In this document: positions 2,800-60,510 of the stretch, piece after piece
Position numbering within the stretch: the stretch's first letter is position 1
Layout: every line of letters begins with the position of its first letter
Sequence record: NC_129898.1
DNA from: a phage
Reading direction: 5' to 3' (one strand)
Length of the DNA stretch: 64,000 bases
Translations under genes and position numbers: made by a program
Notes under the pieces: model-generated
Databases searched by the model: none
What the model was told of the DNA's origin: nothing
Seen by the model: only the letters and a program-made list of their open reading frames with translations

Positions 2800-4871
2800 T
2801 GGCAACAGCTGTTTTTAAACCTTACCGTGATTACTCTACAATGGCTGCACGGTTTCATTACCGCACAGTTCAGGATACTGCAGTTCCAGGTAGGGATTAT
2901 GATCATGTTGAGGGCGATGTAACTATCCCGGTTGGGGCAACCAGTATTGAGATCCCTGTAGAAATTGTTGACAAATTGCCAAACAGGTTGCCAAGAAGCT
3001 TCTTTATGGAGTTTTCATCAAACTCCCAAGGGGTTATGATTGGAACACAAAGAGCAAAATGTACAATAGTTTCAGATGAGAATCTTGACAGAATATCTTG
3101 GGATACCGTTGAGGAGAGAATGTTTCACCCAAGATATTGGGTTACAACCACACAGCAGACTGAAAGCACCTGTATTGTTGCGGATAATAACTGCTGTATT
3201 AACCGTTTAGTGTCAAGAACATATGGAGGCATGGCTGGGTGCATTTGGGAAACAGTTGACAAGTATGACCATTTCGGCATTGGATTTGATGATCACTATG
3301 AGATGAGAAACACCAAGCTTTGGTTCAGAATGTCAATAACTAATGCCAGCAACTTCTCCACCCCTGAAAAGATGATTATGACTGTAGACCTTGTTGATGG
3401 TACAATCATCTATGTTCCTTTAGCTCAATATGCTGTCAGCATCTCAGAGGATAAGAATGTTGCAGAAATTCATATTGATTTCGAGGACTGCGTCGGGATG
3501 GACCAGAACAACAACATGATGGGTGTTGATCCTCGACAGGTGAGAAGGATTCTAATACCACTTATGCCTAAAGATTGGGTAAGTAATAGCACAGACCCAA
3601 GAACGGAAAATGTAGAGTGTGAGTTGCGTCTAGATCTGCTTCAGCCAGACACAGGCTGGAAAATGATGCAACTTAACAATATCCAGGTGAAAGAGCACGA
3701 CGTTGGGATCTGCACAGCATATGACGATATGTGGAACGTATCTCCTTTAAGGGTGTTGAGCAATATCAAGCGTCTGGGCTATACCGGAACCATAAACCAT
3801 TATGTTGGTATGAGCCATTATTATGATTACACATGGTCCGGAACCCAATGGTCTATAAACAGGACAGGGGCTCTAAACGCTGCAGCTTATAAATGGCACG
3901 ATGACTTTATGTATAATGCCAAGCGACATGACTTCGACGTTATGCAGTCTGTAAGCTTTGAGCTTTATAGCGATGCCTGTCCGTTAGAGTGGACCCAGAG
4001 AGATTGGAACGATAACTATGCTAAAACAGGCTATACGCCTTGTAGTTACCTCTTGTCTCCAACCATTGAAGAGGGTATGAATTTCCTTACTGCAGTATTT
4101 AAGAATTTTGCATCAGCCGCTATGAGAAACAACCTGCCAGTAATTATGCAGATTGGTGAACCGTGGTGGTGGTTCAATACCGATACTCGTAAGCCTTGTA
4201 TTTATGACTACCCTACAAAACAGGCGTTTTATGATGAGACTGGTGAATATGCACTAGACATTGGGACTGTTGACGATCCTAAAACTGGCGGTGTTTATGA
4301 CAAGTATGTAGCATTTTGTCGTGGTAAGCTTGGAGCTCGTATTGCAGCTATTTCAAAGGCAATAAAAGCACACGCTGCATCGGCTCAGATGACAGCTTTG
4401 CTGTTTTTTCCGACCATTATGGAAACCGAGCTTACGCAAAAGCTGAACCTTGCTGACCAATATAAAAAGGAAGCAGGTGCTCTTGATTTCTTCTGCACTG
4501 AGTGCTACGATTGGGTGATGCAGGGTGGTATTGAAAAGGCAAAAGAGTCTGTAAACATACCTATCGTTAAGTTAGGTTGGCAACCGTCTGAAATACAATA
4601 CCTTGCAGGGTTCGTTCCTAGCAAAGAGCTTGCTCCGGTATATGGCTACGACCCAACCAGGAATTACCAAGAATTTTTATGGAGATGCATCTGCGGAAAC
4701 ATGGCAACCATAGAGTATAGATACCCTGAGGTAAAACAGTATGTGTGGGCATACCCGCAAGTAATGTCTGACAGCATCACTGTTACCGCTAGGGATTCTA
4801 CCGTGCTTCATATGGGGCAGGTTGCTCTGAAAGGGTATGTAGAAGATGTTGTCCCGCCAGACTTCTCATAA
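2799..4871 (+). CDS. hypothetical protein, putative tail/baseplate structural protein
   Basis: 690-aa ORF translationally coupled to the upstream gene; lies just upstream of the tail-fibre genes. Confidence 0.6.
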   Translation: MATAVFKPYRDYSTMAARFHYRTVQDTAVPGRDYDHVEGDVTIPVGATSIEIPVEIVDKLPNRLPRSFFMEFSSNSQGVMIGTQRAKCTIVSDENLDRISWDTVEERMFHPRYWVTTTQQTESTCIVADNNCCINRLVSRTYGGMAGCIWETVDKYDHFGIGFDDHYEMRNTKLWFRMSITNASNFSTPEKMIMTVDLVDGTIIYVPLAQYAVSISEDKNVAEIHIDFEDCVGMDQNNNMMGVDPRQVRRILIPLMPKDWVSNSTDPRTENVECELRLDLLQPDTGWKMMQLNNIQVKEHDVGICTAYDDMWNVSPLRVLSNIKRLGYTGTINHYVGMSHYYDYTWSGTQWSINRTGALNAAAYKWHDDFMYNAKRHDFDVMQSVSFELYSDACPLEWTQRDWNDNYAKTGYTPCSYLLSPTIEEGMNFLTAVFKNFASAAMRNNLPVIMQIGEPWWWFNTDTRKPCIYDYPTKQAFYDETGEYALDIGTVDDPKTGGVYDKYVAFCRGKLGARIAAISKAIKAHAASAQMTALLFFPTIMETELTQKLNLADQYKKEAGALDFFCTECYDWVMQGGIEKAKESVNIPIVKLGWQPSEIQYLAGFVPSKELAPVYGYDPTRNYQEFLWRCICGNMATIEYRYPEVKQYVWAYPQVMSDSITVTARDSTVLHMGQVALKGYVEDVVPPDFS

Positions 4872-50082: not shown

Positions 50083-50411
50083 GATATTTATGGTAGTATT
50101 TATTTTAAAATTATAAAAATTTTAGGCGATGAGGGAAAATATGTAATGGATTTTCCCTTATTTATCAGATATTTGCAGATATTTGGAAATCCTTAGAAAA
50201 TCAGAAAATGGATCGAAAACTAAAATGGATTTTTTCAAGACAGGCACGATAAGCTGCGCTGCTCATTCTATCGTTCGCACCGTACTTCAAATCACCATTC
50301 CAGATTTTCCGCACATACTCTCACCCCTCTGCCAGAACTTTCCCAACTTACCTTCAGCCTTTTATGACAATAAGTTAATTATTATCAGTAAGTTTTGATA
50401 CATCTCTCTCA

Positions 50412-50495
50412 GTACTCGATCTGTTTTTCATTTCAAAGATTGGATTTTCTGAAAATTTTTCTCGATAAATTTTTCGGTACTCGATCTGTTTTTCG
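50412..50495. repeat. 18-bp perfect direct repeat pair (gtactcgatctgtttttc) in an AT-rich non-coding block
   Basis: Copies at 50412-50429 and 50478-50495; further short repeats (aaatggatttt, ttttcgttttc) nearby. Confidence 0.85.
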
Positions 50496-50730
50496 TTTTC
50501 TGAATCGGATTTTCTTGAAATTGGTCCAGCACCAGATCTAAAATTTTTGGGAACGAAAGCGATTTTTCGTTTTCAGAAATGGATTTTTAAAATTTCTATA
50601 TGGGAATATTTTATGAGGTATTATTTTATATAGAATTGTCACGGTAGGTAATTAGCATGCTAACTAAATTTATGAAATGCGAAAAGTTCTCATTTAGAAT
50701 TTTGAATGATAATCATTCTCGTTTGCAGAA

Positions 50731-50906: not shown

Positions 50907-51064
50907 TGCCGTCCTTTCGATATGTATATTGTGCCACCTGGCGGGGCCGCTGTCAACACTTTTCAAAAAAATTCTAACCTGATGCGCTAACCGTTGCAAC
51001 CTGGCGGGGCCAGCCTGGTGGGCCTATGCTATAGGATAGTAACAATTGAAGAGGAGGTACAAAA

Positions 51065-51181
51065 ATGGAAGGTAATATGATCCCCCTGGAAAATGTAGCT
51101 ATTAATGACGCTGAGGCTATCGCCCTGGTTGAAAAGGCTATGGCGGGAGCGTTGGAACATAAAGAAGAGTACGAAAAATGA
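51065..51181 (+). CDS. small hypothetical protein (38 aa)
   Basis: ATG after RBS GAGGAGG; below the track size cut-off. Confidence 0.35.
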   Translation: MEGNMIPLENVAINDAEAIALVEKAMAGALEHKEEYEK

Positions 51182-51243
51182 CGGTTAACCTGGCAGGGGC
51201 GGCGGCTGGGGAATTTTGCCCAAAAAATAATTTTAACTAGTGG

Positions 51244-51272
51244 TTGACAGCTCGGACAGTTTTTGTTATTCT
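51244..51272 (+). promoter_or_regulatory. sigma70-like promoter (TTGACA-17-TATTCT)
   Basis: Consensus -35 with 17-nt spacer. Confidence 0.5.
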
Positions 51273-51325
51273 TATCCTCGCAAGGTGAACAACACCACAC
51301 TAATTAACAGAGAGGATAAAAAATC

Positions 51326-51523
51326 ATGAACGCCTACGGAATCAAAGTACGTCGCAGCACTCGCCAGGTGGTCACCGATCAAATGATTTGCCAGGTGGAT
51401 GTGACCATCAACAACGGGCAAGGCCTTTATAAATTCCGTCGCGGTCAGAGCTATACCCGGCAACAGCTTAATCGTTGCGCCCTGACAAAAGGCCAGATCA
51501 ACCACTGGTTTAATAAAAAATAA
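51326..51523 (+). CDS. hypothetical small basic protein
   Basis: 65 aa after RBS GAGAGGA. Confidence 0.5.
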   Translation: MNAYGIKVRRSTRQVVTDQMICQVDVTINNGQGLYKFRRGQSYTRQQLNRCALTKGQINHWFNKK

Positions 51524-51526
51524 GTA

Positions 51527-51555
51527 TTGACATATAGGCCGACACCAAATACACT
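51527..51555 (+). promoter_or_regulatory. sigma70-like promoter (TTGACA-17-TACACT)
   Basis: Hexamers with 17-nt spacer upstream of the ORF at 51588. Confidence 0.5.
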
Positions 51556-51587
51556 AAAAGCACAAAAGACACTGAGAGGATAAAATC

Positions 51588-51986
51588 ATGAAAACCACCA
51601 CCTTTAATTTTGATAATGCGGACTTTTCTTTTTCTGATGTCAAAAACTGCCGCCGTGATCGTGGATTTTACAAGGCCTATAATCTGGTGGGCCTGGACGA
51701 TGACAATAATTTGCACGAAGTAGCTGAGATCCGGTATTATGCCGCCGCCAGCGGGAACACTTACTACTGCGTTTTTTGGATACACGACAACAAGAACAAT
51801 AAGTACGGCTATACTGGCGGCAAGGCGAGCGGTCACGGTTACGATAAAGCTAACGCAGCACTTGAGAGCGCATTAAATGCTATGGGGATCACTGCCGACG
51901 GCTGGATCTACGAAGAAGAGTTTTTGTCGGCACTTGCTGCCCATCTAGGGTATAAAAAGCACATTGTGACATGTGCCCACGAATAA
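51588..51986 (+). CDS. hypothetical protein
   Basis: 132 aa after RBS GAGAGGA. Confidence 0.55.
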   Translation: MKTTTFNFDNADFSFSDVKNCRRDRGFYKAYNLVGLDDDNNLHEVAEIRYYAAASGNTYYCVFWIHDNKNNKYGYTGGKASGHGYDKANAALESALNAMGITADGWIYEEEFLSALAAHLGYKKHIVTCAHE

Positions 51987-51991
51987 AAATC

Positions 51992-52048
51992 ATTGACACG
52001 CTGCAAAATTCAAGTAAACTAGACACAAAAGGCGGGAATGTTTCCCGC
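51992..52048 (+). promoter_or_regulatory. promoter plus 5'UTR stem-loop cassette (TTGACA ... ggcggg-aatgtt-tcccgcc)
   Basis: -35 TTGACA at 51992, -10-like aaacta, perfect stem-loop at 52030-52048, then aacacaaa and RBS. Confidence 0.5.
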
Positions 52049-52068
52049 CAACACAAAGGAAAAAGATC

Positions 52069-52473
52069 ATGAATAAGAACGTACGCCGCATCATGAACGA
52101 GTTGGCAAACGATGAAAAAATTATTGACATGCATTTGATCAACATTTGCCGCCGTTGTGTAACATATAACAACCGCGCCGCAAAAGCGCGTGAGATGAAC
52201 GCAAAAGGCACCTTAAAGCCATTCCAGGTGGTGGTAAAGGCCATTAAAAATGTAACTAATACGGCAAACCAGGTACAGGGGAACACCAACGAGAGTACCA
52301 ATATTGATCCGGCTTACATCATGAAACGGATCCGGACCTATAAGAACAAAGAGCAAGTGTATAATGTTATAGACTGGTTGGATTCTATGGGCGACGTGGT
52401 GTACAATAGATTCTCGGCAGCTATTGAGATCCAGCTTGACAGGTTGGACGGTAAAGTACTGAAAACTTATTAA
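52069..52473 (+). CDS. hypothetical protein
   Basis: 134-aa ORF. Confidence 0.55.
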   Translation: MNKNVRRIMNELANDEKIIDMHLINICRRCVTYNNRAAKAREMNAKGTLKPFQVVVKAIKNVTNTANQVQGNTNESTNIDPAYIMKRIRTYKNKEQVYNVIDWLDSMGDVVYNRFSAAIEIQLDRLDGKVLKTY

Positions 52474-52484
52474 GTTTATTTTTA

Positions 52485-52508
52485 GATGGCCTTGACTCTA
52501 GGGCCATC
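52485..52508 (+). repeat. conserved hairpin element gatggccttgactctagggccatc (copy 1 of 4)
   Basis: 7-bp stem with TTGACT in the loop; preceded by tttatttttag and followed by aataaagtaaac; copies at 53107, 53437 (variant), 56829. Confidence 0.8.
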
Positions 52509-52553
52509 AATAAAGTAAACTAGTCTCAACTAAGCGAAAAAGGGGGCTTTAAG

Positions 52554-52673
52554 ATGAGCACTACACGCCAATACACAAAGGTAACTATTATCGTTTGCGT
52601 TGTCGGTTACATCCTGGCGCAAATGTTAATGAGTAGCGCCAACAGTTTTGCAAAATTTTTCTTAAATTTTTAA
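52554..52673 (+). CDS. small hydrophobic peptide (39 aa)
   Basis: ATG after RBS AAGGGGG; central hydrophobic segment. Confidence 0.4.
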   Translation: MSTTRQYTKVTIIVCVVGYILAQMLMSSANSFAKFFLNF

Positions 52674-52730
52674 TTGACAAGTAAATCTCAATAAGTATAC
52701 TTAAACACGTAAACGGGAAAACTTCCCAGA
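52674..52730 (+). promoter_or_regulatory. promoter plus stem-loop cassette, copy A (TTGACA-16-TATACT, degenerate stem-loop)
   Basis: Nearly identical over about 55 nt to the cassette at 54512-54568. Confidence 0.55.
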
Positions 52731-52752
52731 ACACACAAAAGGAGAAAACACC

Positions 52753-53094
52753 ATGACTACTATGACCGCCGCAGAAAAAGCTATGCAGATCGCCGCGCTG
52801 AAAAAACAGATCGCAGACCTTGAGAACAAGATCGATAACTTTGAAATCGACGAGGACAAGTACGACGAAAACTATAATGAATGGCTAGACGAGATCCACG
52901 GCGAAATTATGATCGGTAACATTTCTTTTCTTCCGTCGCGTATCCTCAAAGAGTTAGATCCTATTGCTTACCGCTGCGGATTTAGCGATTACATCGATAG
53001 CCTGGATATTGAGGACGATGAAGAGTACCAAGAATTGCAGATAGAGCTGGGAGAAGTGAAAGAGGAGCTTTCAAAGCTGGAAGAGAACGAGTAA
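52753..53094 (+). CDS. hypothetical acidic protein
   Basis: 113 aa after RBS AAGGAGA. Confidence 0.55.
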   Translation: MTTMTAAEKAMQIAALKKQIADLENKIDNFEIDEDKYDENYNEWLDEIHGEIMIGNISFLPSRILKELDPIAYRCGFSDYIDSLDIEDDEEYQELQIELGEVKEELSKLEENE

Positions 53095-53106
53095 AATTTA
53101 TTTTTA

Positions 53107-53130
53107 GATGGCCTTGACTCCAGGGCCATC
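53107..53130 (+). repeat. conserved hairpin element (copy 2)
   Basis: gatggccttgactccagggccatc with the same flanks. Confidence 0.8.
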
Positions 53131-53181
53131 AATAAAGTAAACTTTACACTGTTAACACTGAACTAATGAGGAGTTAAAACT

Positions 53182-53427
53182 ATGGCAGCACTAATCACCA
53201 AATATTATGCGCCTACCAACACAAAAAGCGCCCGTATCATGGTAAAAGGCTTCGGACGTAAAAAGGTTTACGCCTGGGACTATTCCCTAGATATGGAAGA
53301 CAATTATACCAACGTAATGACCGATTTTATTAATGATCTGAATAAACAGATCTTAACCGACTACAAAGTGACCGATATTGCTTACATAGGTGAAGGCGGG
53401 ATCTGTTTTGTAGGCATTGTGAAATAG
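53182..53427 (+). CDS. hypothetical protein
   Basis: 81 aa after RBS GAGGAG. Confidence 0.5.
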   Translation: MAALITKYYAPTNTKSARIMVKGFGRKKVYAWDYSLDMEDNYTNVMTDFINDLNKQILTDYKVTDIAYIGEGGICFVGIVK

Positions 53428-53436
53428 TTATTTTTC

Positions 53437-53460
53437 GGTGGTCCTGGTTGCAGGGCCATC
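53437..53460 (+). repeat. conserved hairpin element (copy 3, variant)
   Basis: ggtggtcctggttgcagggccatc with a similar 5' flank. Confidence 0.6.
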
Positions 53461-53502
53461 TATAAAGATAATTTATTAACACCATGAAAGGAGAAAGTAC
53501 AC

Positions 53503-53856
53503 ATGATCAGCGGGGCTAGTTTTATTATTGGCGCTATTGCTACGGCTTTAATTGTAAACAAGATCCAGGATAAAAAGGAAAGAGGAAGTACCGCCCTTGC
53601 AGAATATCCATTTTGGACATTTAACGATAACGAAGATTATATTATAAAGTATAAAAATAAAGAAGGCGACCAAGTAACACCGCGACCGATCCCGGCTTAC
53701 AAAATGCAGGAAACACTATACCGCTTGGAGGCGGGGGGCGCAAAAATTGTTGACTTTTGGGGATACGACCACACAGATCAGGAAGTTATAAAGCGCCGTA
53801 TCCGGGCTATTCAGGCCAATATTGAGGTTAACAAGGGGGGAATATATGAAAATTAA
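53503..53856 (+). CDS. hypothetical protein with N-terminal hydrophobic segment
   Basis: 117 aa after RBS AAGGAGA. Confidence 0.5.
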   Translation: MISGASFIIGAIATALIVNKIQDKKERGSTALAEYPFWTFNDNEDYIIKYKNKEGDQVTPRPIPAYKMQETLYRLEAGGAKIVDFWGYDHTDQEVIKRRIRAIQANIEVNKGGIYEN

Positions 53857-54043
53857 TTTCGAGAAAATTGTAAAGCGCCCTCATGATTCCGAAGAGTTGC
53901 CAGAACGCCGACAGCGCAACAATAAACTGAATAAGCCAAAAAGGTTTGGGAAGATCTGGCGGAATCATTATGATCGTAAATTGCCCGGCCTACTTTTGGA
54001 ACGTGAACGACAGGCAGAACGATACCGCCATAAAGACAAATAA
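53846..54043 (+). CDS. small basic protein
   Basis: ATG 53846 after RBS AAGGGGGG (track begins at 53822). Confidence 0.45.
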   Translation: MKINFEKIVKRPHDSEELPERRQRNNKLNKPKRFGKIWRNHYDRKLPGLLLERERQAERYRHKDK

Positions 54044-54049
54044 CAACCA

Positions 54050-54080
54050 ACGCCCCGCCATTGTGCGGGGCTTTTTATTT
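54050..54080 (+). terminator. rho-independent terminator
   Basis: Hairpin ccccgc-cattgt-gcgggg followed by ctttttattt. Confidence 0.65.
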
Positions 54081-54201
54081 CTATCCTACGAATAGCGCCC
54101 CTGGTTGGCCCTGTAAGCGCCAAAAAGGCCCCCACCTATGCAATCGCCCCCTTTAACCTGAAAACATCGCTCAGGGCCGTTTTATAGCGTTAAAAATATC
54201 A

Positions 54202-54229
54202 TTGACATCGTCAACAGGTTAGCTATACT
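54202..54229 (+). promoter_or_regulatory. sigma70-like promoter (TTGACA-16-TATACT)
   Basis: Upstream of RBS AAAGGAG and the ORF at 54262. Confidence 0.5.
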
Positions 54230-54261
54230 AACCACATCAAAGAGAGAAAGGAGTAAACGCC

Positions 54262-54522
54262 ATGCGTAAATTAAAAAATTTTGATAAAGTTGATGTTATC
54301 CTGAATAATTTTTACTACTGCAACAACAAGGCTATTTGGTGGCGGGATAGTTCCACCGATAAAGTCAAGGCGCGCTTTCTTCAGGGGCACTGGCAAGGCC
54401 GCCCAGTGATTAAAATCATGGGGCAATTGGTAGCGTTTAAAAATTGCCGCCGTGTTGATGACGTTGAGGAGATTTTAAACATTTTGCGCCACAATAATTT
54501 AAAAAATAGTGTTGACAAGTAA
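54262..54522 (+). CDS. hypothetical protein
   Basis: 86-aa ORF. Confidence 0.5.
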   Translation: MRKLKNFDKVDVILNNFYYCNNKAIWWRDSSTDKVKARFLQGHWQGRPVIKIMGQLVAFKNCRRVDDVEEILNILRHNNLKNSVDK

Positions 54523-54568
54523 ATCTCAATAAGTATAATTAAACACACAGGCGGGAAAACTTCCCGCC
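54512..54568 (+). promoter_or_regulatory. promoter plus stem-loop cassette, copy B (TTGACA-16-TATAAT, ggcggg-aaaact-tcccgcc)
   Basis: Consensus promoter then perfect stem-loop at 54550-54568; duplicate of the cassette at 52674. Confidence 0.6.
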
Positions 54569-54596
54569 ACTAACAAAGAAAACAGGAGAAAATATC

Positions 54597-55220
54597 ATGA
54601 CCACCGTTAACATTACCACAGGTTACAATTTATCTTTCGACGTGCTGACCGACGAACAAAAAGAAAAAGCCATTGAAATGGTCCGCGAAAGAGAAGAACG
54701 CAGCGGGGATGATTTTTTCGCAGAAAATGTAATTGATTACTACAAAGAATATATCTTTCCAGAGTACGGCCTTGAGGATACCGAAGTACATTGGTCCGGC
54801 TTTTGGTGTCAAGGCGATGGCGCATCGATTAGTGCTGAAAATGTAGACTTAGAAAAATTCTTGCGTAAAGTCAAGGCCCTGACCAAGTTCAGATCAATTC
54901 GTCACTTGTTCGGCACAATGCACGATGGCGAACTATCCGCCAGTGTTGAACGCGACAAGTACAGCCATTACAGCCATGAAAACACTGTAAGCGGGTACAT
55001 TGATACCACTTGGATAGATCTGACCGCCAAACAAGAAAACAAAGTGGAAGATCTGGAAGAATTGATCACCGAGACGGTACGGGAGCTATCCCGCAAGGTT
55101 TACGTAGACCTTGAGGAGGCCTATCTAGAACAGTTCACCGCAGAAAACCTGATCGGCCTTATTCAGGCCAATGATTGGCGGTTTGATGTCGATGAATATG
55201 GTGAGATGACTTTTTCATAA
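54597..55220 (+). CDS. hypothetical protein
   Basis: 207 aa after RBS AGGAGA. Confidence 0.55.
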   Translation: MTTVNITTGYNLSFDVLTDEQKEKAIEMVREREERSGDDFFAENVIDYYKEYIFPEYGLEDTEVHWSGFWCQGDGASISAENVDLEKFLRKVKALTKFRSIRHLFGTMHDGELSASVERDKYSHYSHENTVSGYIDTTWIDLTAKQENKVEDLEELITETVRELSRKVYVDLEEAYLEQFTAENLIGLIQANDWRFDVDEYGEMTFS

Positions 55221-55228
55221 ATAAAGTG

Positions 55229-55289
55229 TTGCAATAACCTAAAAACCTGCTATATTAAAACTCAAGGCGGGCGAGACGTTTGCCCGCCA
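55229..55289 (+). promoter_or_regulatory. promoter plus stem-loop cassette (TTGCAA-16-TATATT, ggcgggcgagacgtttgcccgcc)
   Basis: Stem-loop at 55267-55289 followed by aacacaaa and RBS AGAGGA. Confidence 0.5.
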
Positions 55290-55313
55290 ACACAAAACAA
55301 AGAGGATAACATC

Positions 55314-55694
55314 ATGAAAAATACTACCAAGGCTATTGACACCGTTATGTTTAACCTGGTTACATTCCGTGAAGATATGAAAGATCTTCCGCGTGAAACA
55401 GTGTGCGACCATATCGAAAACTATCGCAAACTAATCAAAGAGTTGCCTTTAAAACGTGATCAATATGCGGCTAACGCCATGCTTAATGCCATGATCAAAA
55501 AGATGATCCAGTGTGATTTAACCCTGGCCTATGATTATGCAGGCGGTCGTTTTGCAGTATACAATCAGCCCGTGCCCGGTATGAGTACCACCGAAGAATT
55601 GCACGCGCTCAATCTAAAACAGGACGTGTGGGATAGTATGCCTCGCGTGGTGGTATGGGTAGAAAGCGGAAAGATTTACGGCGATAATTTTTAA
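55314..55694 (+). CDS. hypothetical protein
   Basis: 126-aa ORF. Confidence 0.55.
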   Translation: MKNTTKAIDTVMFNLVTFREDMKDLPRETVCDHIENYRKLIKELPLKRDQYAANAMLNAMIKKMIQCDLTLAYDYAGGRFAVYNQPVPGMSTTEELHALNLKQDVWDSMPRVVVWVESGKIYGDNF

Positions 55695-55758
55695 TCAGGT
55701 AGCAGGCGGCATATTTGCCGCCTTATTGTTGATCAGAACTGCAAAAGAGGTACATAGA

Positions 55759-56130
55759 ATGGAATTTATTATTTTGGCTGTATTGGTTGCCTTATTTAAC
55801 GCCTGGATCGCTGGCAAGATGGGAAGATCCGCCTTTTTATGGTTTATTATATCTATTTTCCTGGGGGTGGTTGCAACTATTGTATTGGTTATCCTTGCAA
55901 TTGTTGACAAGGGGAATAATAGAAAGGGTAAAGTATTTTCAGACCTGTACGACGCTCAAACTTTTGTTAACGCCTATTATAGTGATCTCCCAGTCTCCCT
56001 ACGTTGCAGCCTTGCACAACAGGTTTTCGATGAAGCTAAAACCAGAGACCACGCCCATGAGATTTGTTTAACTGAGGCGGATCGCTTATTTGAGAGGAAT
56101 AGAAAATATGTGGGCCAGCCGTTTAAATAA
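55759..56130 (+). CDS. membrane protein (two predicted TM segments)
   Basis: ATG 55759 after RBS AAGAGG (track begins at 55726); hydrophobic helices. Confidence 0.5.
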   Translation: MEFIILAVLVALFNAWIAGKMGRSAFLWFIISIFLGVVATIVLVILAIVDKGNNRKGKVFSDLYDAQTFVNAYYSDLPVSLRCSLAQQVFDEAKTRDHAHEICLTEADRLFERNRKYVGQPFK

Positions 56131-56329
56131 TACCACGTTAATTAATCCATTTAGTGAAGATTTGAGGCCAGCCGCCTGGCGGGATGGATTCAATAACGAA
56201 AAATTTACTTTTAGGCCTGATCTTGAGGAATTTTATAACAATGGATCGAACAACGACAGAGATAATTTTTCTTGCGGTGTGTGTCGTGATCGGACTACTG
56301 GGAGCCATTGCAAACCACGTAACCGCTAA
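56108..56329 (+). CDS. hypothetical protein (alternative frame 56241-56366 also possible)
   Basis: ATG 56108 after RBS GAGAGGA; overlaps a second plausible small TM ORF in another frame. Confidence 0.3.
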   Translation: MWASRLNNTTLINPFSEDLRPAAWRDGFNNEKFTFRPDLEEFYNNGSNNDRDNFSCGVCRDRTTGSHCKPRNR

Positions 56330-56349
56330 CAGAAGGAAAGGGGGAGACG

Positions 56350-56469
56350 ATGACACCCAAGGATAAGCCCCGCACCGATAAGGCGCGCCGTGTTATGGTA
56401 TGGCTGGAGATCATCGCCCTTGAAATATTGTTAGGCGTAGGGATGTATTTTATCGCCGTACGTACCTGA
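56350..56469 (+). CDS. small membrane peptide (39 aa)
   Basis: ATG after RBS AAGGGGGAG; hydrophobic C-terminal half; terminator follows. Confidence 0.45.
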   Translation: MTPKDKPRTDKARRVMVWLEIIALEILLGVGMYFIAVRT

Positions 56470-56473
56470 TAAC

Positions 56474-56506
56474 GGCCCCCGATCCCTGGGGGCCTGACTT
56501 TTTTCA
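56474..56506 (+). terminator. rho-independent terminator
   Basis: Hairpin ggccccc-gatccct-gggggcc followed by tgacttttttc. Confidence 0.65.
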
Positions 56507-56528
56507 AAAAAATTTTTCTTCCGGGGTG

Positions 56529-56582
56529 TTGCAATCCGGTCCGGGATATGGATAATAACAATCAACGGGGAGACACTCCCCA
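56529..56582 (+). promoter_or_regulatory. promoter plus stem-loop cassette (TTGCAA-16-GATAAT, ggggag-acac-tcccc)
   Basis: Shares the spacer core atatggataataa with the cassette at 57347. Confidence 0.5.
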
Positions 56583-56615
56583 CCACACAGACAAAGTTCC
56601 AAAAGGAGAAACAAA

Positions 56616-56816
56616 ATGAGCAACAATATCCGCGTTATTAATTTCAAAAAAGAAGAAAAAATCGCTGTGCTGGTTGATGGTCAAGAAATATTCAAGGGGT
56701 ATTATGAAGATCATCAGGCGGCGATCAGTATTACCCGCGTAATTGGTTACCATAATTTTTACCCTCAAGGCGCTGAGGCAGCAGTAAAACGAATTAAAGA
56801 GATCGTAGGCCTGTAA
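56616..56816 (+). CDS. hypothetical protein
   Basis: 66 aa after RBS AAGGAGA. Confidence 0.5.
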   Translation: MSNNIRVINFKKEEKIAVLVDGQEIFKGYYEDHQAAISITRVIGYHNFYPQGAEAAVKRIKEIVGL

Positions 56817-56828
56817 AATTTATTTTTA

Positions 56829-56852
56829 GATGGCCTTGACCCCAGGGCCATC
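56829..56852 (+). repeat. conserved hairpin element (copy 4)
   Basis: gatggccttgaccccagggccatc with the same flanks. Confidence 0.8.
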
Positions 56853-56902
56853 AAATAAAGTAAATTTAAACCCTGCTAAAATAATCAGTGCAAAAAGGAG
56901 CA

Positions 56903-57208
56903 ATGATCATGTTTATACCCGCCAATAATCTTTATTTCTTTGATGGTCAGATCGTAGACGGCGTGGAAGTTGAGATCACTGGATGTCAAGGCGGCCAGGT
57001 AATGATCTTCCGCAATAGTGCCTTTAACGATCATTTTATTACAATGACTGTGGAAGTTAAAAAGCTGGATGATAAGAAAACACTCATTGACTATTCCGTG
57101 AAAGATCATCCAGACTACCACATGATCTATGGTGATTTGTGCATTGTTGACCGTGACAAGGTGGGCGGCATTGTGATCGCTATTGTGAACGATGTTTTCT
57201 CTGAATAA
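56903..57208 (+). CDS. hypothetical protein
   Basis: ATG 56903 (or 56909) after RBS AAAGGAG (track begins at 56888). Confidence 0.5.
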   Translation: MIMFIPANNLYFFDGQIVDGVEVEITGCQGGQVMIFRNSAFNDHFITMTVEVKKLDDKKTLIDYSVKDHPDYHMIYGDLCIVDRDKVGGIVIAIVNDVFSE

Positions 57209-57346
57209 TTCCGGCAAATGATGCAAAATAAGGCCCATGGCAGGGCCTGCAGCGATATAATCACACAAAGGCTATGCGGTTGCATGGCCTTTTTTATTTT
57301 AGCGCTACAGCGGCCCCCAAGGCGTTTAAAAAATTTTTAAAAGTAC

Positions 57347-57398
57347 TTGCATCAAGTCCGACAATATGGATAATAAGACTTATCAGGGGGCGGCCCCC
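57347..57398 (+). promoter_or_regulatory. promoter plus stem-loop cassette (TTGCAT-16-GATAAT, gggggcggccccc)
   Basis: Hexamers with 16-nt spacer, stem-loop at 57384-57398, then RBS and ATG 57431. Confidence 0.5.
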
Positions 57399-57430
57399 AA
57401 TCATTAACCGGATAGATAGGAGTTAAAATC

Positions 57431-57715
57431 ATGGCTATTGTTACTGTTGGCGATGTAGTAGAAATGGAAGCAAAATACTTAAAAGCGGGTATGCATATCC
57501 TACGCAACGATCTTGAACTAGTCCTGACAATGGTCGACTATAATCCCGGTCAGGATTATCCAAGCATCGACTACTTTTTCCAGTATGTTGATGAAGAATT
57601 AAAAGAGGATGAGGCTTATCAGGGTGAATTTTGTAATTTCTTTTGCCCTGACGAGATTGTAAAAGTTATCTATCAACCTGGCGTACCTTTCCCGTTGCAC
57701 GCCATCAATAAATAA
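57431..57715 (+). CDS. hypothetical protein
   Basis: 94 aa after RBS TAGGAG. Confidence 0.55.
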   Translation: MAIVTVGDVVEMEAKYLKAGMHILRNDLELVLTMVDYNPGQDYPSIDYFFQYVDEELKEDEAYQGEFCNFFCPDEIVKVIYQPGVPFPLHAINK

Positions 57716-57778
57716 GCCTGGCGGGGCCGAAAAAGGCCCCTCCTGAAAATATGAAAAAATAAAGATAGGTGAATCATC

Positions 57779-58012
57779 ATGATGGAACAAATTAAACGCG
57801 CTGAGGCTATTAATGGTAATGTGATCTATTTTGTCAGCAAAAACGAAAAAGGCGTACCCTATGCGGCGGTAATAGTACAGCCTGACGGCGATTATTGGTG
57901 CACTGTGTACGGCGCTTATTCTTTTGGGCGTCCAGTGCATGATAAAATTTTGAAAGTAGCGAACCCTACCGGGAAAAATATCACAGCAGAAAAATTTTTT
58001 GAAAATAGTTGA
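57779..58012 (+). CDS. hypothetical protein
   Basis: 77-aa ORF. Confidence 0.5.
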   Translation: MMEQIKRAEAINGNVIYFVSKNEKGVPYAAVIVQPDGDYWCTVYGAYSFGRPVHDKILKVANPTGKNITAEKFFENS

Positions 58013-58076
58013 CAACAAACAACAATCTAACAAAGCATAATACATAAGGCGGCAATGATGCCGCCAACATGACAGA

Positions 58077-58340
58077 ATGAGAAACATCATTTACAGACTG
58101 ACAAAACGCAACATTATGATCGCCACCGTGATCGCTTGCCTTTTCGCTTTCGTGAGTAACGCAACGTTTAACGCCGTGGGCGGGGCGATGTTTAATGCTG
58201 GCAGCGTTTCAACAGCTAACACAATGATCGATTGTTTGCAACTTTTCTTTTATGTTGCCTTTCGTTTAAAAATAGCTTGCAAGGTAGACCGTTTTGATTT
58301 ACCTTTCATTTGTGGCGGCGTGATCGCTATCGTATGTTAA
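58077..58340 (+). CDS. hypothetical hydrophobic protein (start uncertain)
   Basis: 87 aa; preceded by a TTGACA promoter-like site and stem-loop ggcggcaatgatgccgcc; weak RBS. Confidence 0.35.
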   Translation: MRNIIYRLTKRNIMIATVIACLFAFVSNATFNAVGGAMFNAGSVSTANTMIDCLQLFFYVAFRLKIACKVDRFDLPFICGGVIAIVC

Positions 58341-58507
58341 GGATCAGAAGATGGGAAAACTCTCAATTCTGTTGTTTTATCAAAAACCTTGACAATATCA
58401 GAATGTACAGACGGTTAAAAATAATTGTTGACACCAGGCGCGGATCTGGTAAAGTGTACGACATAGGGCGGGGCAATAAGGCAACGCCCATTAATGATGG
58501 TGGAATC

Positions 58508-58612
58508 ATGTTAGAAAAAATTTTCACGGTTGTAGTAGTTGGCATGGCATTATCGGTTGGAGTGGTTGCAACTATGGCTAACATGATCCTATCTTCCCAC
58601 GGTATCGGGTAA
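58508..58612 (+). CDS. small membrane peptide (34 aa)
   Basis: Internal ATG of track ORF 58310-58612; the region upstream of it carries promoter-like sequence, so the longer ORF is unlikely. Confidence 0.3.
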   Translation: MLEKIFTVVVVGMALSVGVVATMANMILSSHGIG

Positions 58613-58613
58613 G

Positions 58614-58838
58614 GTGAAACAAATGATCACGAACAAAACAGGGAAAACGGAATTTTTACGCGGCTTGCAAATAGGCAAGCCTGAGATCTGGCATTGCACT
58701 AAAACACCACGTGACGAAATGAAAGACTTTACCGCCACGCTGAAGCGGGTAAAAATATCCATTACGCAGAAAAAAGCCTTGATAGTGGTGGAAGGTGAGA
58801 TCCCTCAAACCGTTGTTATTGTTGAGCGTACAGCATAG
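58614..58838 (+). CDS. hypothetical protein
   Basis: 74-aa ORF. Confidence 0.45.
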   Translation: MKQMITNKTGKTEFLRGLQIGKPEIWHCTKTPRDEMKDFTATLKRVKISITQKKALIVVEGEIPQTVVIVERTA

Positions 58839-58927
58839 TTTAATCTATACCGTACGCCCCATTGACTAACAAAGCATAAGCAGGCGGCGGTGACCGCCTT
58901 GAACGCAACAGAAAGAGAATAGAAAAC

Positions 58928-59062
58928 ATGAGAAAGATAATTATTACCATGGGGATCGTGGCGGCAATGTTGGCGATCTTTCCCTTTATGGTTAGGTATG
59001 TGCTGATCAGTGTTGTCCTGATAGGCAGTGATCTATTGGAAACGGTTGGCAACTGGTTTTAA
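58928..59062 (+). CDS. small membrane peptide (44 aa)
   Basis: Manual ORF, strongly hydrophobic; preceded by a promoter-like site and stem-loop ggcggcggtgaccgcc. Confidence 0.35.
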   Translation: MRKIIITMGIVAAMLAIFPFMVRYVLISVVLIGSDLLETVGNWF

Positions 59063-59117
59063 GATAATAAACAGGGCTTGAAATGGTCCTGTTTTTTGTT
59101 ATACTTATCTCACGGGT

Positions 59118-59160
59118 GGCACCTGGCGACGGGGGGAGACAATCACCGGGGGTGCCCGTT
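59118..59160. repeat. inverted copy of the 50731/50870 dyad repeat unit
   Basis: gggagacaatcaccgggggtgcccgtt is the exact reverse complement of 27 nt at 50731-50757; the extended match resembles the 50870 copy. Confidence 0.85.
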
Positions 59161-59182
59161 ATATAAAAAACTATAAAAACAG

Positions 59183-59211
59183 TTGACATCTGCCAGGTGG
59201 TTAGGTAACAT
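59183..59211 (+). promoter_or_regulatory. sigma70-like promoter (TTGACA-17-TAACAT)
   Basis: Followed by short stem-loop ggggcaaaagtgccc and RBS GAGAGGA before ATG 59266. Confidence 0.5.
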
Positions 59212-59265
59212 TTATCTTGAAGGGGCAAAAGTGCCCACACAACAACCGGAAGAGAGGAAAACATT

Positions 59266-59538
59266 ATGTCAAGCTGGATTAATCAAGAAATCGAATCACG
59301 TTTTAATGCTATTTGGGATCTCATCGAAAAAGAGGACGGAACATCAAGCCCTTATCTCAATAACCTGGAATTTCATTTTGTGGAAGCGATGAACGCAGAA
59401 CATGATCACGAAGGTGGCGCGGATGAGTTCGCTCAAGGGTATGGCTTCAACAATGCCAACGAAATGATTGAGGCGGTTGTACTTCAGGCTGAGGAAGATT
59501 ATCAATTAAAAACACTTGAATTTTGCCGCCGTAAGTAA
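59266..59538 (+). CDS. hypothetical acidic protein
   Basis: 90-aa ORF. Confidence 0.55.
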   Translation: MSSWINQEIESRFNAIWDLIEKEDGTSSPYLNNLEFHFVEAMNAEHDHEGGADEFAQGYGFNNANEMIEAVVLQAEEDYQLKTLEFCRRK

Positions 59539-59599
59539 TAAGATAATGACACTGGCCAAAAGGCCCACCAAACCAGAACCCCATAAAGAGGAAAACATC

Positions 59600-59863
59600 A
59601 TGAAACGCCTTGATCAGCTCAAACTAGTTCAGTACATGGCCTACAAAGTTATTGAAGTCCAAAAAGGTAGTAAAAAGGAGGTTTGCGAGAAAGCGTACAA
59701 GATCTTTACTCGTAAAAAAGATGATTGGATGTTGCGCCAGACCAAAAAGGCTGATATCCTGGGGTACCTGGAAGAAGAGATCCGGCTTGAAGAGCAAGAA
59801 GAGATCCGCCGAAGTGAGGCAGATTATCAGGCAGCTTGGGAAAGCTGGATGAGCAACAAATAG
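59600..59863 (+). CDS. hypothetical protein
   Basis: ATG 59600 after RBS AAAGAGGA (track begins at 59516). Confidence 0.5.
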   Translation: MKRLDQLKLVQYMAYKVIEVQKGSKKEVCEKAYKIFTRKKDDWMLRQTKKADILGYLEEEIRLEEQEEIRRSEADYQAAWESWMSNK

Positions 59864-59875
59864 TACAACATTATC

Positions 59876-59910
59876 AAGGGGCCTTAAGGCCCCTTTCTTT
59901 TTTGTTTTCT
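59876..59910. terminator. rho-independent terminator ending the plus-strand early block
   Basis: Hairpin aaggggcc-ttaa-ggcccctt followed by tcttttttgtttt. Confidence 0.7.
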
Positions 59911-60510
59911 CTTTTCCTACCATAAACGGCCCCGCCTGGCAAGTGGAATAATTAACGAGCCATCAATCCCGCACACTGTACAAATATACATGTAAAATAG
60001 TTATTGCATAACCTTTCATTGTGTGGTAGCGGTGCTATTTTTACCTGTTTTCTCTCCCAAAATTGCACGTAATGCAGCTATTGCACAAAATTTAACCTGA
60101 TGCACATCTTCAGTATACTGTCAACAATTAAAAACCCTTATAAGTCATACACTTACACAAACCAAAAAGCGCGTCCTACGTGAAAAATCGGGTGTAACTA
60201 TAGCCGACAGATCTCAGAATCCACGTACGATCACCATTCTATAGCCTGCAAAGTATTTATTCCAACCACAGAATAACGGAATAGTCAATACCTGTACAAA
60301 ATAATTATTCGTACAAACTGCATAACATAAACCTGCCCAGGTGTCAACATTTTTCGTAAACAGTTAGAAATTGTCACGATAGGTTACTATAATCAGAGAA
60401 ATATTTAGTCGTCTAATGTTTACTGTACATAACTATACTGACTGGAATCATTAGATGACTAAGAGAAAGATAAGAAATAGTTAACAATGTAATTGTTTTA
60501 CCTGTAACAA

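What the first reader, a model, noticed from the sequence alone, without database searches (positions are those of the whole stretch)
52554..59062. Cluster of very small hydrophobic peptides, each with its own promoter
Manual translation finds five ORFs of 34-123 aa with one or two predicted transmembrane helices (52554, 55759, 56350, 58508, 58928), most below the ORF-track cut-off and several preceded by a promoter cassette and a good RBS. Small membrane peptides in early regions often act in host takeover or superinfection exclusion.
Basis: inference. Interest (0 to 1): 0.4.

Follow-up and report, generated by a model that had tools for sequence, protein, structure and literature searches.

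The report
Known small membrane-protein genes in rV5-like phage
The five tiny hydrophobic reading frames are real, conserved membrane-protein genes of an rV5-like coliphage, but they were already annotated and published as predicted membrane proteins, most lack their own promoter, and their function is still unknown.

Summary
The window is an rV5-like coliphage (Vequintavirus, 96% identical to FV3). All five ORFs exist at the stated coordinates. Each has a segment predicted to insert in the membrane. Each is under purifying selection in the called frame (pN/pS 0.07-0.40) and stays open in 112-162 phage genomes, while the other frames are closed. They are therefore real genes.

They are not new. 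Each is an annotated CDS in FV3 and rV5, and the 2013 rV5 paper lists all five orthologs as "membrane protein, 1 TMD" (1-2 TMD for ORF183).

"Each with its own promoter" does not hold. Only D (58508) has a positionally conserved sigma-70 promoter. B and C sit in one operon that follows a terminator-like hairpin. In relatives, E is translationally coupled to an upstream gene that is deleted in this window.

One extra result: a sixth peptide of 41 aa with one TM helix (56241-56366) lies out of frame in the unconstrained tail of annotated gene 56108-56329. It is almost never annotated.

No homology, fold or RNA-family search gave a function. The most likely role is as accessory early inner-membrane proteins acting on the host envelope. 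A superinfection-exclusion or host-takeover role is plausible but untested.

The parts
52554..52673 (+). Peptide A, 39 aa, one TM helix (residues ~10-26), probably N-in. Orthologs: FV3_00177, rV5 ORF193, phrog_16391.
   Evidence: pN/pS 0.19, other frames closed. Permutation P = 0.005. Present in 112 Vequintavirus records. Anti-SD duplex -10.7 kcal/mol.
52480..52521 (+). Repeated hairpin cassette upstream of A: an AT-rich tract, then GATGGCC-loop(TTGACTCTA)-GGCCATC, then TAAACT. One of four copies in the window. It may be a weak promoter (9 of 12 matches) or an RNA processing or stability hairpin.
52674..52701 (+). Near-consensus sigma-70 promoter (TTGACA-16-TATACT) that starts directly after A's stop codon. 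It serves the next gene (52753), not A. Equivalent to rV5 P192.
55229..55256 (+). Promoter (TTGCAA-16-TATATT with TG) followed by a GC hairpin in the 5'UTR. It drives gene 55314-55694 and, by read-through, probably the B operon.
55704..55723 (+). Conserved terminator-like hairpin (AGGCGGCATATTTGCCGCCT followed by TTATTGTT) immediately upstream of B. No promoter lies between it and B.
   Evidence: (annotated as a terminator in HdK5)
55759..56130 (+). Protein B, 123 aa: an N-terminal hairpin of two TM helices plus a three-helix soluble C-terminal domain of about 65 aa. Orthologs: FV3_00169 'putative membrane protein', rV5 ORF183. Labelled 'putative holin' in BASEL phages.
   Evidence: (pN/pS 0.07). 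Homologs P0006 and P0007 share the C-terminal domain but carry a different, single TM anchor.
56108..56329 (+). Annotated soluble gene F0 (FV3_00168, rV5 ORF182). Only its first 44 codons are constrained. Its tail is neutral and its stop position varies between relatives.
   Evidence: head 0.30 (CI 0.14-0.61), tail 1.00 (CI 0.52-2.09)
56241..56366 (+). Sixth peptide 'ALT', 41 aa, one TM helix (8-24), basic C-flank. It lies in the +1 frame inside F0's tail and overlaps the start of C by 17 nt. GAGGA sits 11 nt upstream of its ATG. It is rarely annotated.
   Evidence: 0.40, CI 0.22-0.68; the same frame upstream of the Met gives 2.06; 80% coverage or more in 118 of 118 records; positional analogue in a divergent lineage; called only in phage Gotham and one Logan contig
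56350..56469 (+). Peptide C, 39 aa: a strongly basic N-terminus (N-in) and a C-terminal TM helix with two invariant Glu residues (WLEIIALEILLGVGMYF). Orthologs: FV3_00167, rV5 ORF181, phrog_13629.
   Evidence: (0.24 overall, 0.11 in the TM part, in-frame indel in L013 and L014)
56474..56494 (+). Strong intrinsic terminator (GGCCCCCG..CGGGGGCC followed by a T-run) that closes the B-F0-ALT-C operon.
58428..58455 (+). Sigma-70 promoter with an extended -10 (TTGACA-16-TG-TAAAGT) for D. Its hexamer positions are conserved across Vequintavirus and Phapecoctavirus although the spacers differ. A hairpin and RBS follow.
58508..58612 (+). Peptide D, 34 aa, one TM helix, conserved C-terminal motif ATMaNmILSShGIG. 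Orthologs: FV3_00160, rV5 ORF173, phrog_14631. Shared between Vequintavirinae and Stephanstirmvirinae, including phi92, where it is not annotated.
   Evidence: (P = 0.003)
58928..59062 (+). Peptide E, 44 aa: N-terminal MRK followed by hydrophobic residues 4-37 (one TM helix or a helical hairpin). Orthologs: FV3_00157, rV5 ORF170, phrog_16005. In this window it sits directly behind the 5'UTR of a deleted upstream gene.
   Evidence: (P = 0.006)
59069..59094 (+). Intrinsic terminator after E. It closes the predicted D - gene 58623 - E transcription unit.

Best explanation
The finding covers five already annotated, genuine small inner-membrane protein genes of an rV5-like Vequintavirus. A sixth, almost never annotated, overlaps one of their neighbours.

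They are not separately promoted units. They are embedded in short operons in the + strand ORFan arm, which is transcribed from host-type sigma-70 promoters:
(i) A lies between a repeated hairpin cassette and the next gene's promoter.
(ii) P55229 -> gene 55314 -> leaky hairpin -> B -> F0 -> ALT -> C -> terminator.
(iii) P58428 -> D -> gene 58623 -> E -> terminator.

Shown here: the reading frames are conserved under purifying selection, they have insertion-competent TM segments, and most have Shine-Dalgarno sites.

Inferred: they are made early, at low to moderate level (the B operon only by terminator read-through). They insert into the host inner membrane as single-pass or hairpin peptides. 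There they act as accessory, non-structural factors by binding other membrane proteins, either host proteins or proteins of incoming phage. Superinfection exclusion, envelope or transport modulation, and lysis timing are the most likely classes. The precise targets are unknown.
For: Identity and annotation.
Coding status. pN/pS is 0.07-0.40 in frame, the other frames are closed, and indels are in-frame.
Distribution: 112-162 genomes across two subfamilies.
Length and motif kept at only 53-55% identity for D and E.
TM competence: and TMHMM/Phobius on the rV5 orthologs.
RBS.
Operon structure and promoters.
Not detected by virion mass spectrometry in rV5, consistent with non-structural proteins.
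Membrane anchoring matters for B: the same soluble domain is found with two unrelated TM anchors.
Precedent: small early membrane proteins acting by protein-protein contact include T4 Imm (83 aa), which binds the tape-measure protein, and T4 Spackle (PMC7677548, listed).
Against: There is no expression data of any kind for an rV5-like phage, so 'early' rests on promoter consensus and gene neighbourhood only. No homology or fold similarity links any peptide to a characterised protein. In this window E has a weak RBS and no convincing promoter. pN/pS of 0.40 for E and ALT indicates fairly relaxed constraint. A and C are absent from one divergent rV5-like lineage, so they are dispensable.
Confidence: 0.6

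Rival explanations
1. The B-F0-ALT-C operon is a lysis-control module (holin, antiholin or lysis-inhibition proteins). This would match the 'putative holin' label that the BASEL collection gives to B.
For: B is small, has 1-2 TM helices and a charged C-terminal part. BASEL annotates its ortholog as a putative holin. No experimentally verified holin exists for rV5-like phages. rIIB, a gene named for protection from prophage-induced early lysis, lies in the same proposed transcription unit.
Against: The BASEL label came from a heuristic applied when no holin was known: any small protein with TM helices. The rV5 authors chose a different protein, gp129, as putative holin, and the lysin gp89 is about 40 kb away. 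B follows sigma-70 promoters in the ORFan arm, not a late region. No match to any holin family in Pfam, NCBIfam or PHROGs. The only BFVD 'Holin' hit has E = 1.8.
Confidence: 0.12
2. The peptides are membrane-depolarising toxins, in the manner of type I toxins (Hok, TisB, DinQ), used for host shut-off.
For: They match type I toxins and DinQ-like peptides in size (34-44 aa), single TM helix and high hydrophobicity (DinQ paper listed). The B operon appears to be expressed only through a leaky hairpin, as might be expected for toxic products.
Against: No Rfam antisense or toxin-antitoxin RNA family in the region. No convincing antisense promoters. No similarity to any toxin family. A lytic phage gains little from early depolarisation, which would cut its own energy supply (general knowledge).
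Confidence: 0.1
3. ALT is not a separate gene. It is the C-terminal part of a fusion protein made by programmed +1 ribosomal frameshifting from F0.
For: Selective constraint switches from the F0 frame to the +1 frame at about 56240. This is what a frameshift fusion would also produce.
Against: An ATG sits exactly at the switch point in all 13 sequences examined, and also in a divergent lineage where the surrounding sequence differs. SD-like GAGGA or GGAGAG lies upstream in both. There is no shared slippery or stop-codon pause motif. F0 continues open for 28 or more codons.
Confidence: 0.05
4. The ORFs are chance hydrophobic reading frames in AT-rich intergenic DNA and are not translated.
For: TM-like windows are common in random and antisense ORFs here: 42% on the minus strand. 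PHROG membership only shows that gene callers call them.
Against: There is frame-specific purifying selection, the ORFs stay open in more than 100 genomes while the other frames are closed, length is retained at 53-55% identity, indels are in-frame, and most have SD sites.
Confidence: 0.03

Closest known systems
rV5 ORFs 193, 183, 181, 173, 170 and FV3_00177, 00169, 00167, 00160, 00157 (Kropinski et al. 2013, Virol J 10:76, Table S3; GenBank DQ832317, JQ031132)
   Same: They are direct orthologs at 53-100% amino-acid identity, with the same order and the same lengths. The paper already lists each as 'membrane protein, 1 TMD' (1-2 TMD for ORF183).
   Different: None in kind. This window lacks the gene between the upstream cassette and E (the FV3_00158 homolog), and it carries the FV3-type rather than the rV5-type allele of D.
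T4 Imm (83 aa) and Spackle: early small envelope proteins that give superinfection exclusion
   Same: They are small, made early by a large lytic myovirus, located in the membrane or periplasm, non-structural, and act by binding another protein. Imm binds the incoming tape-measure protein (PMC7677548 listed).
   Different: No sequence or family relationship: no Imm_superinfect hit or any other family hit at E <= 1. Imm is modelled with several helices (helices 1-4), whereas four of these peptides have a single TM helix. No exclusion phenotype has been tested.
Bacterial small inner-membrane regulators (review 'Functional diversity and molecular interactions of small membrane proteins in bacteria', PMC12648545, listed). 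AcrZ, MgrB, MgtS and SgrT are examples from my own knowledge.
   Same: They are 30-50 aa single-pass peptides whose only plausible mode of action is helix-helix binding to a larger membrane protein. C's two invariant intramembrane Glu residues suggest a specific partner.
   Different: Those are host-encoded and stress-regulated, and none is homologous. For the phage peptides the partner is unknown.
PeSL cassettes (promoter-early stem-loops) of RB49/phi1-type T4-like phages (Arbiol et al. 2010, PMC2839356; Comeau et al. 2014, PMC4122927)
   Same: The region is built from repeated intergenic cassettes that combine a near-consensus sigma-70 promoter, an AT-rich tract and a GC-rich stem-loop. These flank small ORFans whose presence differs between close relatives. 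Several neighbouring rV5 genes have RB49 or phi1 homologs.
   Different: The phage group is different. The element order also differs: here the stem-loop lies downstream of the promoter in the 5'UTR, or encloses the -35-like box, rather than upstream as a terminator. No mini-circle or recombination data exist for rV5-like phages.

Membership tests
Orthologs of the rV5/FV3 predicted membrane proteins (PHROGs 16391, 13090, 13629, 14631, 16005) | Full-length significant match to the family profile | tested here: met
   E = 4e-31, 2e-84, 1e-30, 3e-22 and 8e-29, each covering the whole profile.
Orthologs of the rV5/FV3 predicted membrane proteins (PHROGs 16391, 13090, 13629, 14631, 16005) | Same genomic position and order as in FV3 and rV5 | tested here: met
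   Collinear with FV3_00177...00157 and rV5 ORF193...170.
Protein-coding gene (as opposed to a chance ORF) | Frame-specific purifying selection and an ORF kept open in relatives | tested here: met
   pN/pS 0.07-0.40 in frame, other frames closed. Permutation P <= 0.006 for A, B, D and E. Bootstrap CIs for C and ALT exclude 1.
Protein-coding gene (as opposed to a chance ORF) | Direct evidence of translation (ribosome footprints or peptides) | not testable with these tools
   No Ribo-seq or infected-cell proteomics for rV5-like phages was found. The rV5 mass spectrometry covered virions only.
Integral membrane peptide | A hydrophobic segment of at least 17 residues predicted to insert | tested here: met
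   KD19 of 2.0-3.1 and summed dGapp of -5.1 to 0.0, against +12 to +15 for controls. TMHMM/Phobius gave positive calls for the rV5 orthologs.
Holin | Homology to a described holin family | tested here: not met
   No holin family in Pfam, NCBIfam or PHROGs for B or any peptide. The best BFVD 'Holin' fold hit has E = 1.8.
Holin | Linkage to endolysin or spanin genes, or late expression | tested here: not met
   The rV5 lysin gp89 lies about 40 kb away. B sits in the sigma-70 ORFan arm. The BASEL label was heuristic. Expression timing itself was not measured.
Holin | Forms lethal membrane lesions that release endolysin | not testable with these tools
   Requires an expression or complementation assay.
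T4 Imm-type superinfection immunity protein (Pfam Imm_superinfect) | Match to the family profile | tested here: not met
   No such hit at E <= 1 for any of the nine proteins scanned.
T4 Imm-type superinfection immunity protein (Pfam Imm_superinfect) | Blocks DNA entry of a superinfecting phage | not testable with these tools
   Requires efficiency-of-plating assays on cells expressing the peptides.
Type I toxin-antitoxin toxin | An overlapping or adjacent antisense regulatory RNA | tested here: not met
   No Rfam family at E <= 1 apart from one unrelated weak sRNA hit outside the ORFs. No strong antisense promoter.
PeSL regulatory cassette (for the 'promoter cassettes' cited in the finding) | Repeated motif with a near-consensus sigma-70 promoter and an upstream AT-rich tract | tested here: met
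   Six exact TTGACA-N16-TAWWMT sites against 0.11 expected, clustered at 48-55 kb. Repeat families D1, D3 and D4.
PeSL regulatory cassette (for the 'promoter cassettes' cited in the finding) | Stem-loop placed upstream of the promoter, acting as terminator for incoming transcription | tested here: not met
   Here the GC hairpin lies downstream of the -10 in the 5'UTR, or encloses the -35-like box.
PeSL regulatory cassette (for the 'promoter cassettes' cited in the finding) | Association with ORFan insertions and deletions between close relatives | tested here: met
   The slot between 58013 and 58507 holds 1-3 different small ORFs in FV3, rV5, A51.2, nimi, HdK5 and Mangalyan. An extra 351-nt gene is present in some relatives. 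The FV3_00158 homolog is lost here.

The most novel reading that the evidence does not exclude
The operon B - F0 - ALT - C (55759-56469) may encode a dedicated multi-subunit inner-membrane device. Its parts would be a two-helix anchored three-helix domain protein, a ~45-aa soluble protein, and two oppositely oriented single-pass peptides. One of these peptides is hidden out of frame inside the preceding gene. The other has two invariant intramembrane glutamates. The operon is expressed at low level by terminator read-through. Such a device could be a new kind of superinfection-exclusion or anti-defence system specific to Vequintavirus. D and E, shared across two myovirus subfamilies, would be further independent envelope effectors.
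Probability: 0.15. Interest if true: 0.55.

Novelty: already known. Interest (0 to 1): 0.2.

Why it matters
Taken as stated, the finding re-discovers hypothetical genes that are already in GenBank and in the rV5 paper, so it changes little. Three things are useful.

(1) Codon-level evidence now shows that these very short ORFs are real. Many deposited Vequintavirus, Phapecoctavirus and phi92-like genomes leave D, E or A unannotated, so this can help annotation.

(2) One annotated gene (F0, equivalent to rV5 ORF182) is probably mis-delimited and hides a conserved 41-aa membrane peptide.

(3) rV5-like phages are used in phage therapy and biocontrol. They carry at least six conserved small membrane proteins of unknown function, and these are cheap to test by deletion, expression and exclusion assays.

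Tried and rejected
Searches and tests that gave nothing:
- Pfam, NCBIfam and PHROG scans of all peptides and neighbours gave no functional family.
- The word-indexed search and the full HMMER search of 1.84 billion representatives for B found only rV5-like relatives. The larger 'hits' (P0008, P0010, P0011) are repetitive translation artefacts.
- The AlphaFold2 model of B (pLDDT 72) searched against BFVD and PDB returned nothing below E = 1e-3 except B itself.
- Rfam on the region found nothing relevant.
- IMG/VR yielded only two related loci, so relatives were taken from INPHARED records and Logan contigs instead.
- Literature searches found no transcriptome, Ribo-seq or toxicity screen for Vequintavirinae.

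Readings considered and rejected:
- The 'holin' label for B is heuristic.
- The 'TTGACT' upstream of E is not a -35 box. The spacer is 7 nt and the hexamer is not conserved.
- A first mutation-permutation test for C and ALT was invalid, because of a spurious hit and indel-shifted sequences. It was replaced by a gapped-alignment bootstrap.
- The 87-aa hydrophobic ORF at 58077 could not be resolved. It has only one homolog, 9 nt differences and no RBS.

Full report
IDENTITY OF THE WINDOW. Megablast of 52000-59500 against 50,697 phage genomes gives 244 matching records. The best is Escherichia phage FV3 (96.2% identity over 98% of the query), followed by many other Vequintavirus genomes, including rV5 at 90%. 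The exact sequences of peptides C and E are those of phage vB_EcoM_SYGMH1. The window is therefore an rV5-like myovirus of E. coli. The finding lies in a + strand arm of very small genes. In rV5 this arm belongs to the proposed transcription unit 'genes 10-1-238-164'.

THE OBSERVATION. The five ORFs are present at exactly the stated coordinates. Each has a strongly hydrophobic segment. The best 19-residue Kyte-Doolittle means are 2.0-3.1. The summed Hessa dGapp for the best 17-21 residue window is -5.1 to 0.0, against +12 to +15 for two soluble neighbours.

Hydrophobicity is not sufficient evidence here. Of the ORFs of 30-130 aa in 51000-60500, 7 of 36 on the + strand and 22 of 53 on the antisense strand (42%) have a TM-like window.

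FRAME CONSERVATION. I fetched the homologous region from 20 relatives, comprising INPHARED records, two IMG/VR contigs and three Logan contigs.
- Summed Nei-Gojobori pN/pS in the called frame is 0.19 (A), 0.07 (B), 0.24-0.25 (C), 0.24 (D) and 0.40 (E). Five neighbouring control genes give 0.07-0.16.
- In both alternative frames every sequence contains stops, and the ratios are about 0.6-7.
- The one 'stop' in B is a stop two codons early at the C-terminus of one contig.
- A permutation test placed the observed mutation types at random positions. It shows synonymous enrichment with P = 0.0046 (A), <0.0002 (B), 0.0032 (D) and 0.0060 (E).
- For C, a gapped alignment with codon bootstrap gives 0.24 (95% CI 0.12-0.50) overall and 0.11 in the TM part. 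The two most divergent relatives carry an in-frame 3-nt insertion.
- D in rV5 and RudolfGeigy is only 53% identical yet keeps 34 codons and the C-terminal motif ATMxNxILSSxGIG. E in Phapecoctavirus is 55% identical and keeps 44 codons.
- tblastn against all phage genomes, which does not depend on annotation, finds A in 112 records, C in 118, D in 150 and E in 162. D and E also occur in Phapecoctavirus and Justusliebigvirus, including phi92. Many records have nothing annotated under the match.

These are real genes.

ALREADY KNOWN. All five are annotated CDSs in FV3 (FV3_00177, 00169, 00167, 00160, 00157) and in rV5 (ORFs 193, 183, 181, 173, 170). They are full-length members of PHROG families of unknown function. 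Table S3 of Kropinski et al. 2013 lists exactly these five rV5 ORFs as 'membrane protein', with 1 TMD (1-2 TMD for ORF183) from TMHMM and Phobius. In that table, 5 of the 30 ORFs numbered 164-193 carry a TMD, against 10 of 203 elsewhere (odds ratio 3.9, p = 0.03). That is a modest enrichment. The five are interspersed among about 24 genes.

PROMOTERS, RBS AND OPERONS. The region is rich in consensus-like sigma-70 sites: 40 found against 21 expected, and six exact TTGACA-N16-TAWWMT sites against 0.11 expected. However, the peptide genes are not individually promoted.
- D has a good promoter at 58428-58455 (TTGACA-16-TAAAGT preceded by TG). Its hexamer positions are conserved in Vequintavirus and Phapecoctavirus relatives although the spacer sequences differ. 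That argues for function.
- B has no promoter. It is preceded by a conserved terminator-like hairpin (55704-55723), which is annotated as a terminator in HdK5.
- B, F0, ALT and C overlap one another (by 23, 89 and 17 nt) and end at a strong terminator (56474-56494). They form one operon, presumably fed by read-through from P55229.
- In relatives, E begins 2-3 nt after the stop of a 94-aa signal-peptide protein gene (FV3_00158) and has no SD, which implies translational coupling. In this window that gene has been deleted by recombination between two similar start regions (ATGAAAAAGATGAT and ATGAGAAAGATAAT). E now sits behind the lost gene's 5'UTR. The 'TTGACT' there reads TTAACT in FV3 and is 7 nt from the nearest -10-like hexamer, so it is not a promoter.
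- The unit D - gene 58623 - E ends at a terminator (59069-59094).
- A follows a 4-copy hairpin cassette whose loop reads TTGAC. In the third copy the stem is kept by wobble pairs while the TTGAC is lost. The element may therefore be a structural RNA feature rather than a promoter. I could not decide between these.
- Anti-SD duplex energies are -10.7 kcal/mol (A, C), -7.2 (B), -6.3 (D) and -2.9 (E). Other genes here average -7.6 and non-start ATGs average -2.7.

A SIXTH PEPTIDE. In the annotated gene 56108-56329 (F0), constraint holds only for the first 44 codons: pN/pS 0.30, CI 0.14-0.61. From 56240 onward the F0 frame is neutral (1.00, CI 0.52-2.09), and its stop position differs between relatives (222 against 246 nt). 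The +1 frame behaves in the opposite way: 2.06 before an internal ATG at 56241, and 0.40 (CI 0.22-0.68) after it. The third frame gives 0.99.

That ATG is present in all 13 aligned sequences. It is preceded by GAGGA at 11 nt and opens a 41-aa ORF, MDRTTTEIIFLAVCVVIGLLGAIANHVTANRRKGGDDDTQG, with one TM helix (dGapp -3.6). tblastn finds this ORF at 80% coverage or more in the same 118 genomes that carry C.

In a divergent rV5-like lineage (L018-L020) the F0 head is conserved. A 29-aa ORF with the same architecture but almost no sequence similarity (MEDKAQIAILMISVVIEMIAVVAAYYKKK) starts at an ATG at the same place in the +1 frame.

None of the 12 annotated Vequintavirus records that I fetched for this region calls the peptide. 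An exact-sequence look-up shows it has been called once in GenBank (phage Gotham, QLF82679.1) and once in a Logan contig. It is therefore rarely annotated rather than unknown. A programmed +1 frameshift is the alternative reading. The conserved ATG plus SD and the lack of any shared slippery motif make it unlikely.

FUNCTION. Nothing in sequence or structure assigns a function.
- Pfam, NCBIfam and PHROGs give no functional family.
- B has no relatives outside rV5-like phages, even in a full HMMER scan of 1.84 billion representatives.
- B's model has two TM helices plus a three-helix C-terminal domain (pLDDT 72, about 80-84 in the domain). It has no fold neighbour below E = 1e-3 in BFVD or PDB apart from itself.
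- One informative detail: homologs P0006 and P0007 carry the same ~65-aa soluble domain on a different, single TM anchor. Membrane tethering of that domain therefore seems to be what matters.
- The 'putative holin' label on B in BASEL genomes came from a stated heuristic. It conflicts with the rV5 authors' choice of gp129, and with B's location far from the lysin and behind early-type promoters.
- By the positive-inside rule, C is N-in (5 basic residues against 1) and ALT is C-in. C's helix carries two Glu residues that are invariant in all relatives examined, which suggests a specific helix-helix partner.

My best reading is that these are accessory, early, non-structural inner-membrane peptides that work by binding other membrane proteins. 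T4 Imm and Spackle are the closest functional precedents (PMC7677548 listed). This step is inference, not demonstration.

CONTEXT. The intergenic cassettes combine a sigma-70 promoter, an AT-rich tract and a GC hairpin. Gene content around them differs between close relatives. This resembles the PeSL-mediated ORFan shuffling described for RB49 and phi1, and several neighbouring rV5 genes have RB49 or phi1 homologs. The element order is different, however, so this is a functional analogy, not membership.

VERDICT. The finding is nevertheless a re-discovery of published hypothetical membrane proteins. The promoter claim is largely wrong and the function remains open. Novelty: already known. Interest: low (0.2). 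The rarely annotated overlapping peptide and the possible four-gene membrane operon are the only parts worth a follow-up experiment.

Noticed in passing
window 56108-56366: Annotated gene F0 (rV5 ORF182, FV3_00168) is constrained only in its first 44 codons. A conserved 41-aa TM peptide starts at ATG 56241 in the +1 frame and overlaps the start of peptide C. It is called in only one GenBank genome (Gotham) and one Logan contig.
   Followed up: yes
window 52480-52508, 53102-53130, 53432-53460, 56824-56852: There are four + strand copies of a ~47-nt imperfect palindrome (T-rich arm, GATGGCC-loop-GGCCATC, A-rich arm), each directly after a stop codon. The stem is kept by wobble pairs in copy 3 while the TTGAC loop is not. 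It is not a canonical terminator on either strand. It may be an RNase III or mRNA-stability site, or a hairpin-embedded promoter.
   Followed up: partly
window 51993-52065, 52674-52739, 54512-54584, 55229-55304, 56529-56585, 58009-58066: A second cassette family consists of a near-consensus sigma-70 promoter, then a GC hairpin (GGCGGG-loop-CCCGCC type), then an AACACAAA-like leader and an RBS. It resembles PeSL elements of RB49 and phi1, but the stem-loop lies downstream of the promoter.
   Followed up: partly
window 58839-58945 compared with L001 7523-7920: The window lacks the 94-aa signal-peptide protein gene (FV3_00158, rV5 ORF171) that precedes E in relatives. The deletion junction lies in two near-identical start regions (ATGARAAAGATRAT), so the loss was precise and recombinational.
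   Followed up: yes
window 58013-58507: This is a hypervariable slot. Relatives carry 1-3 different small ORFs here (180, 225, 138, 240 or 195 nt). The window has only an 87-aa hydrophobic ORF (58077-58340), shared only with FV3. It has no Shine-Dalgarno site, and its coding status could not be resolved (9 nt differences, pN/pS 0.56, not distinguishable from the other frames).
   Followed up: partly
window 53503-53856 and 53846-54043: The 117-aa protein at 53503 has an N-terminal hydrophobic anchor (KD19 1.88) that the rV5 table does not flag. The overlapping next gene is the T7 gp1.1-like protein (PF08200 in the rV5 table; noted in the A51.2 annotation).
   Followed up: no
L018-L020 (Logan contigs), locus coordinates 4001-4279 and ~4390-4485: This is a divergent rV5-like lineage. 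B has a different, single N-terminal TM anchor on the same soluble domain. A and C are absent. A 29-aa TM ORF occupies the ALT position.
   Followed up: partly
window 50402-50587: Three direct repeats of ~47 nt, spaced 65-74 nt apart (consensus ...GTACTCGATCTGTTTTTCRTTT...GGATTTT), lie just upstream of the small-gene arm. Their function is unknown.
   Followed up: no
window 54044-54261: A 218-nt non-coding gap contains a terminator-like hairpin detected on both strands (54052-54071), a GC-rich structured stretch, and then a strong promoter at 54202-54229. It looks like a major transcription-unit boundary inside the arm.
   Followed up: no
public records MG0656xx (for example A13b, C12, C5): About 20 GenBank records named 'Campylobacter phage' with host C. 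jejuni are 90-93% identical to this coliphage region. They look like rV5-like coliphages, so the names are probably mislabelled or the result of contamination.
   Followed up: no
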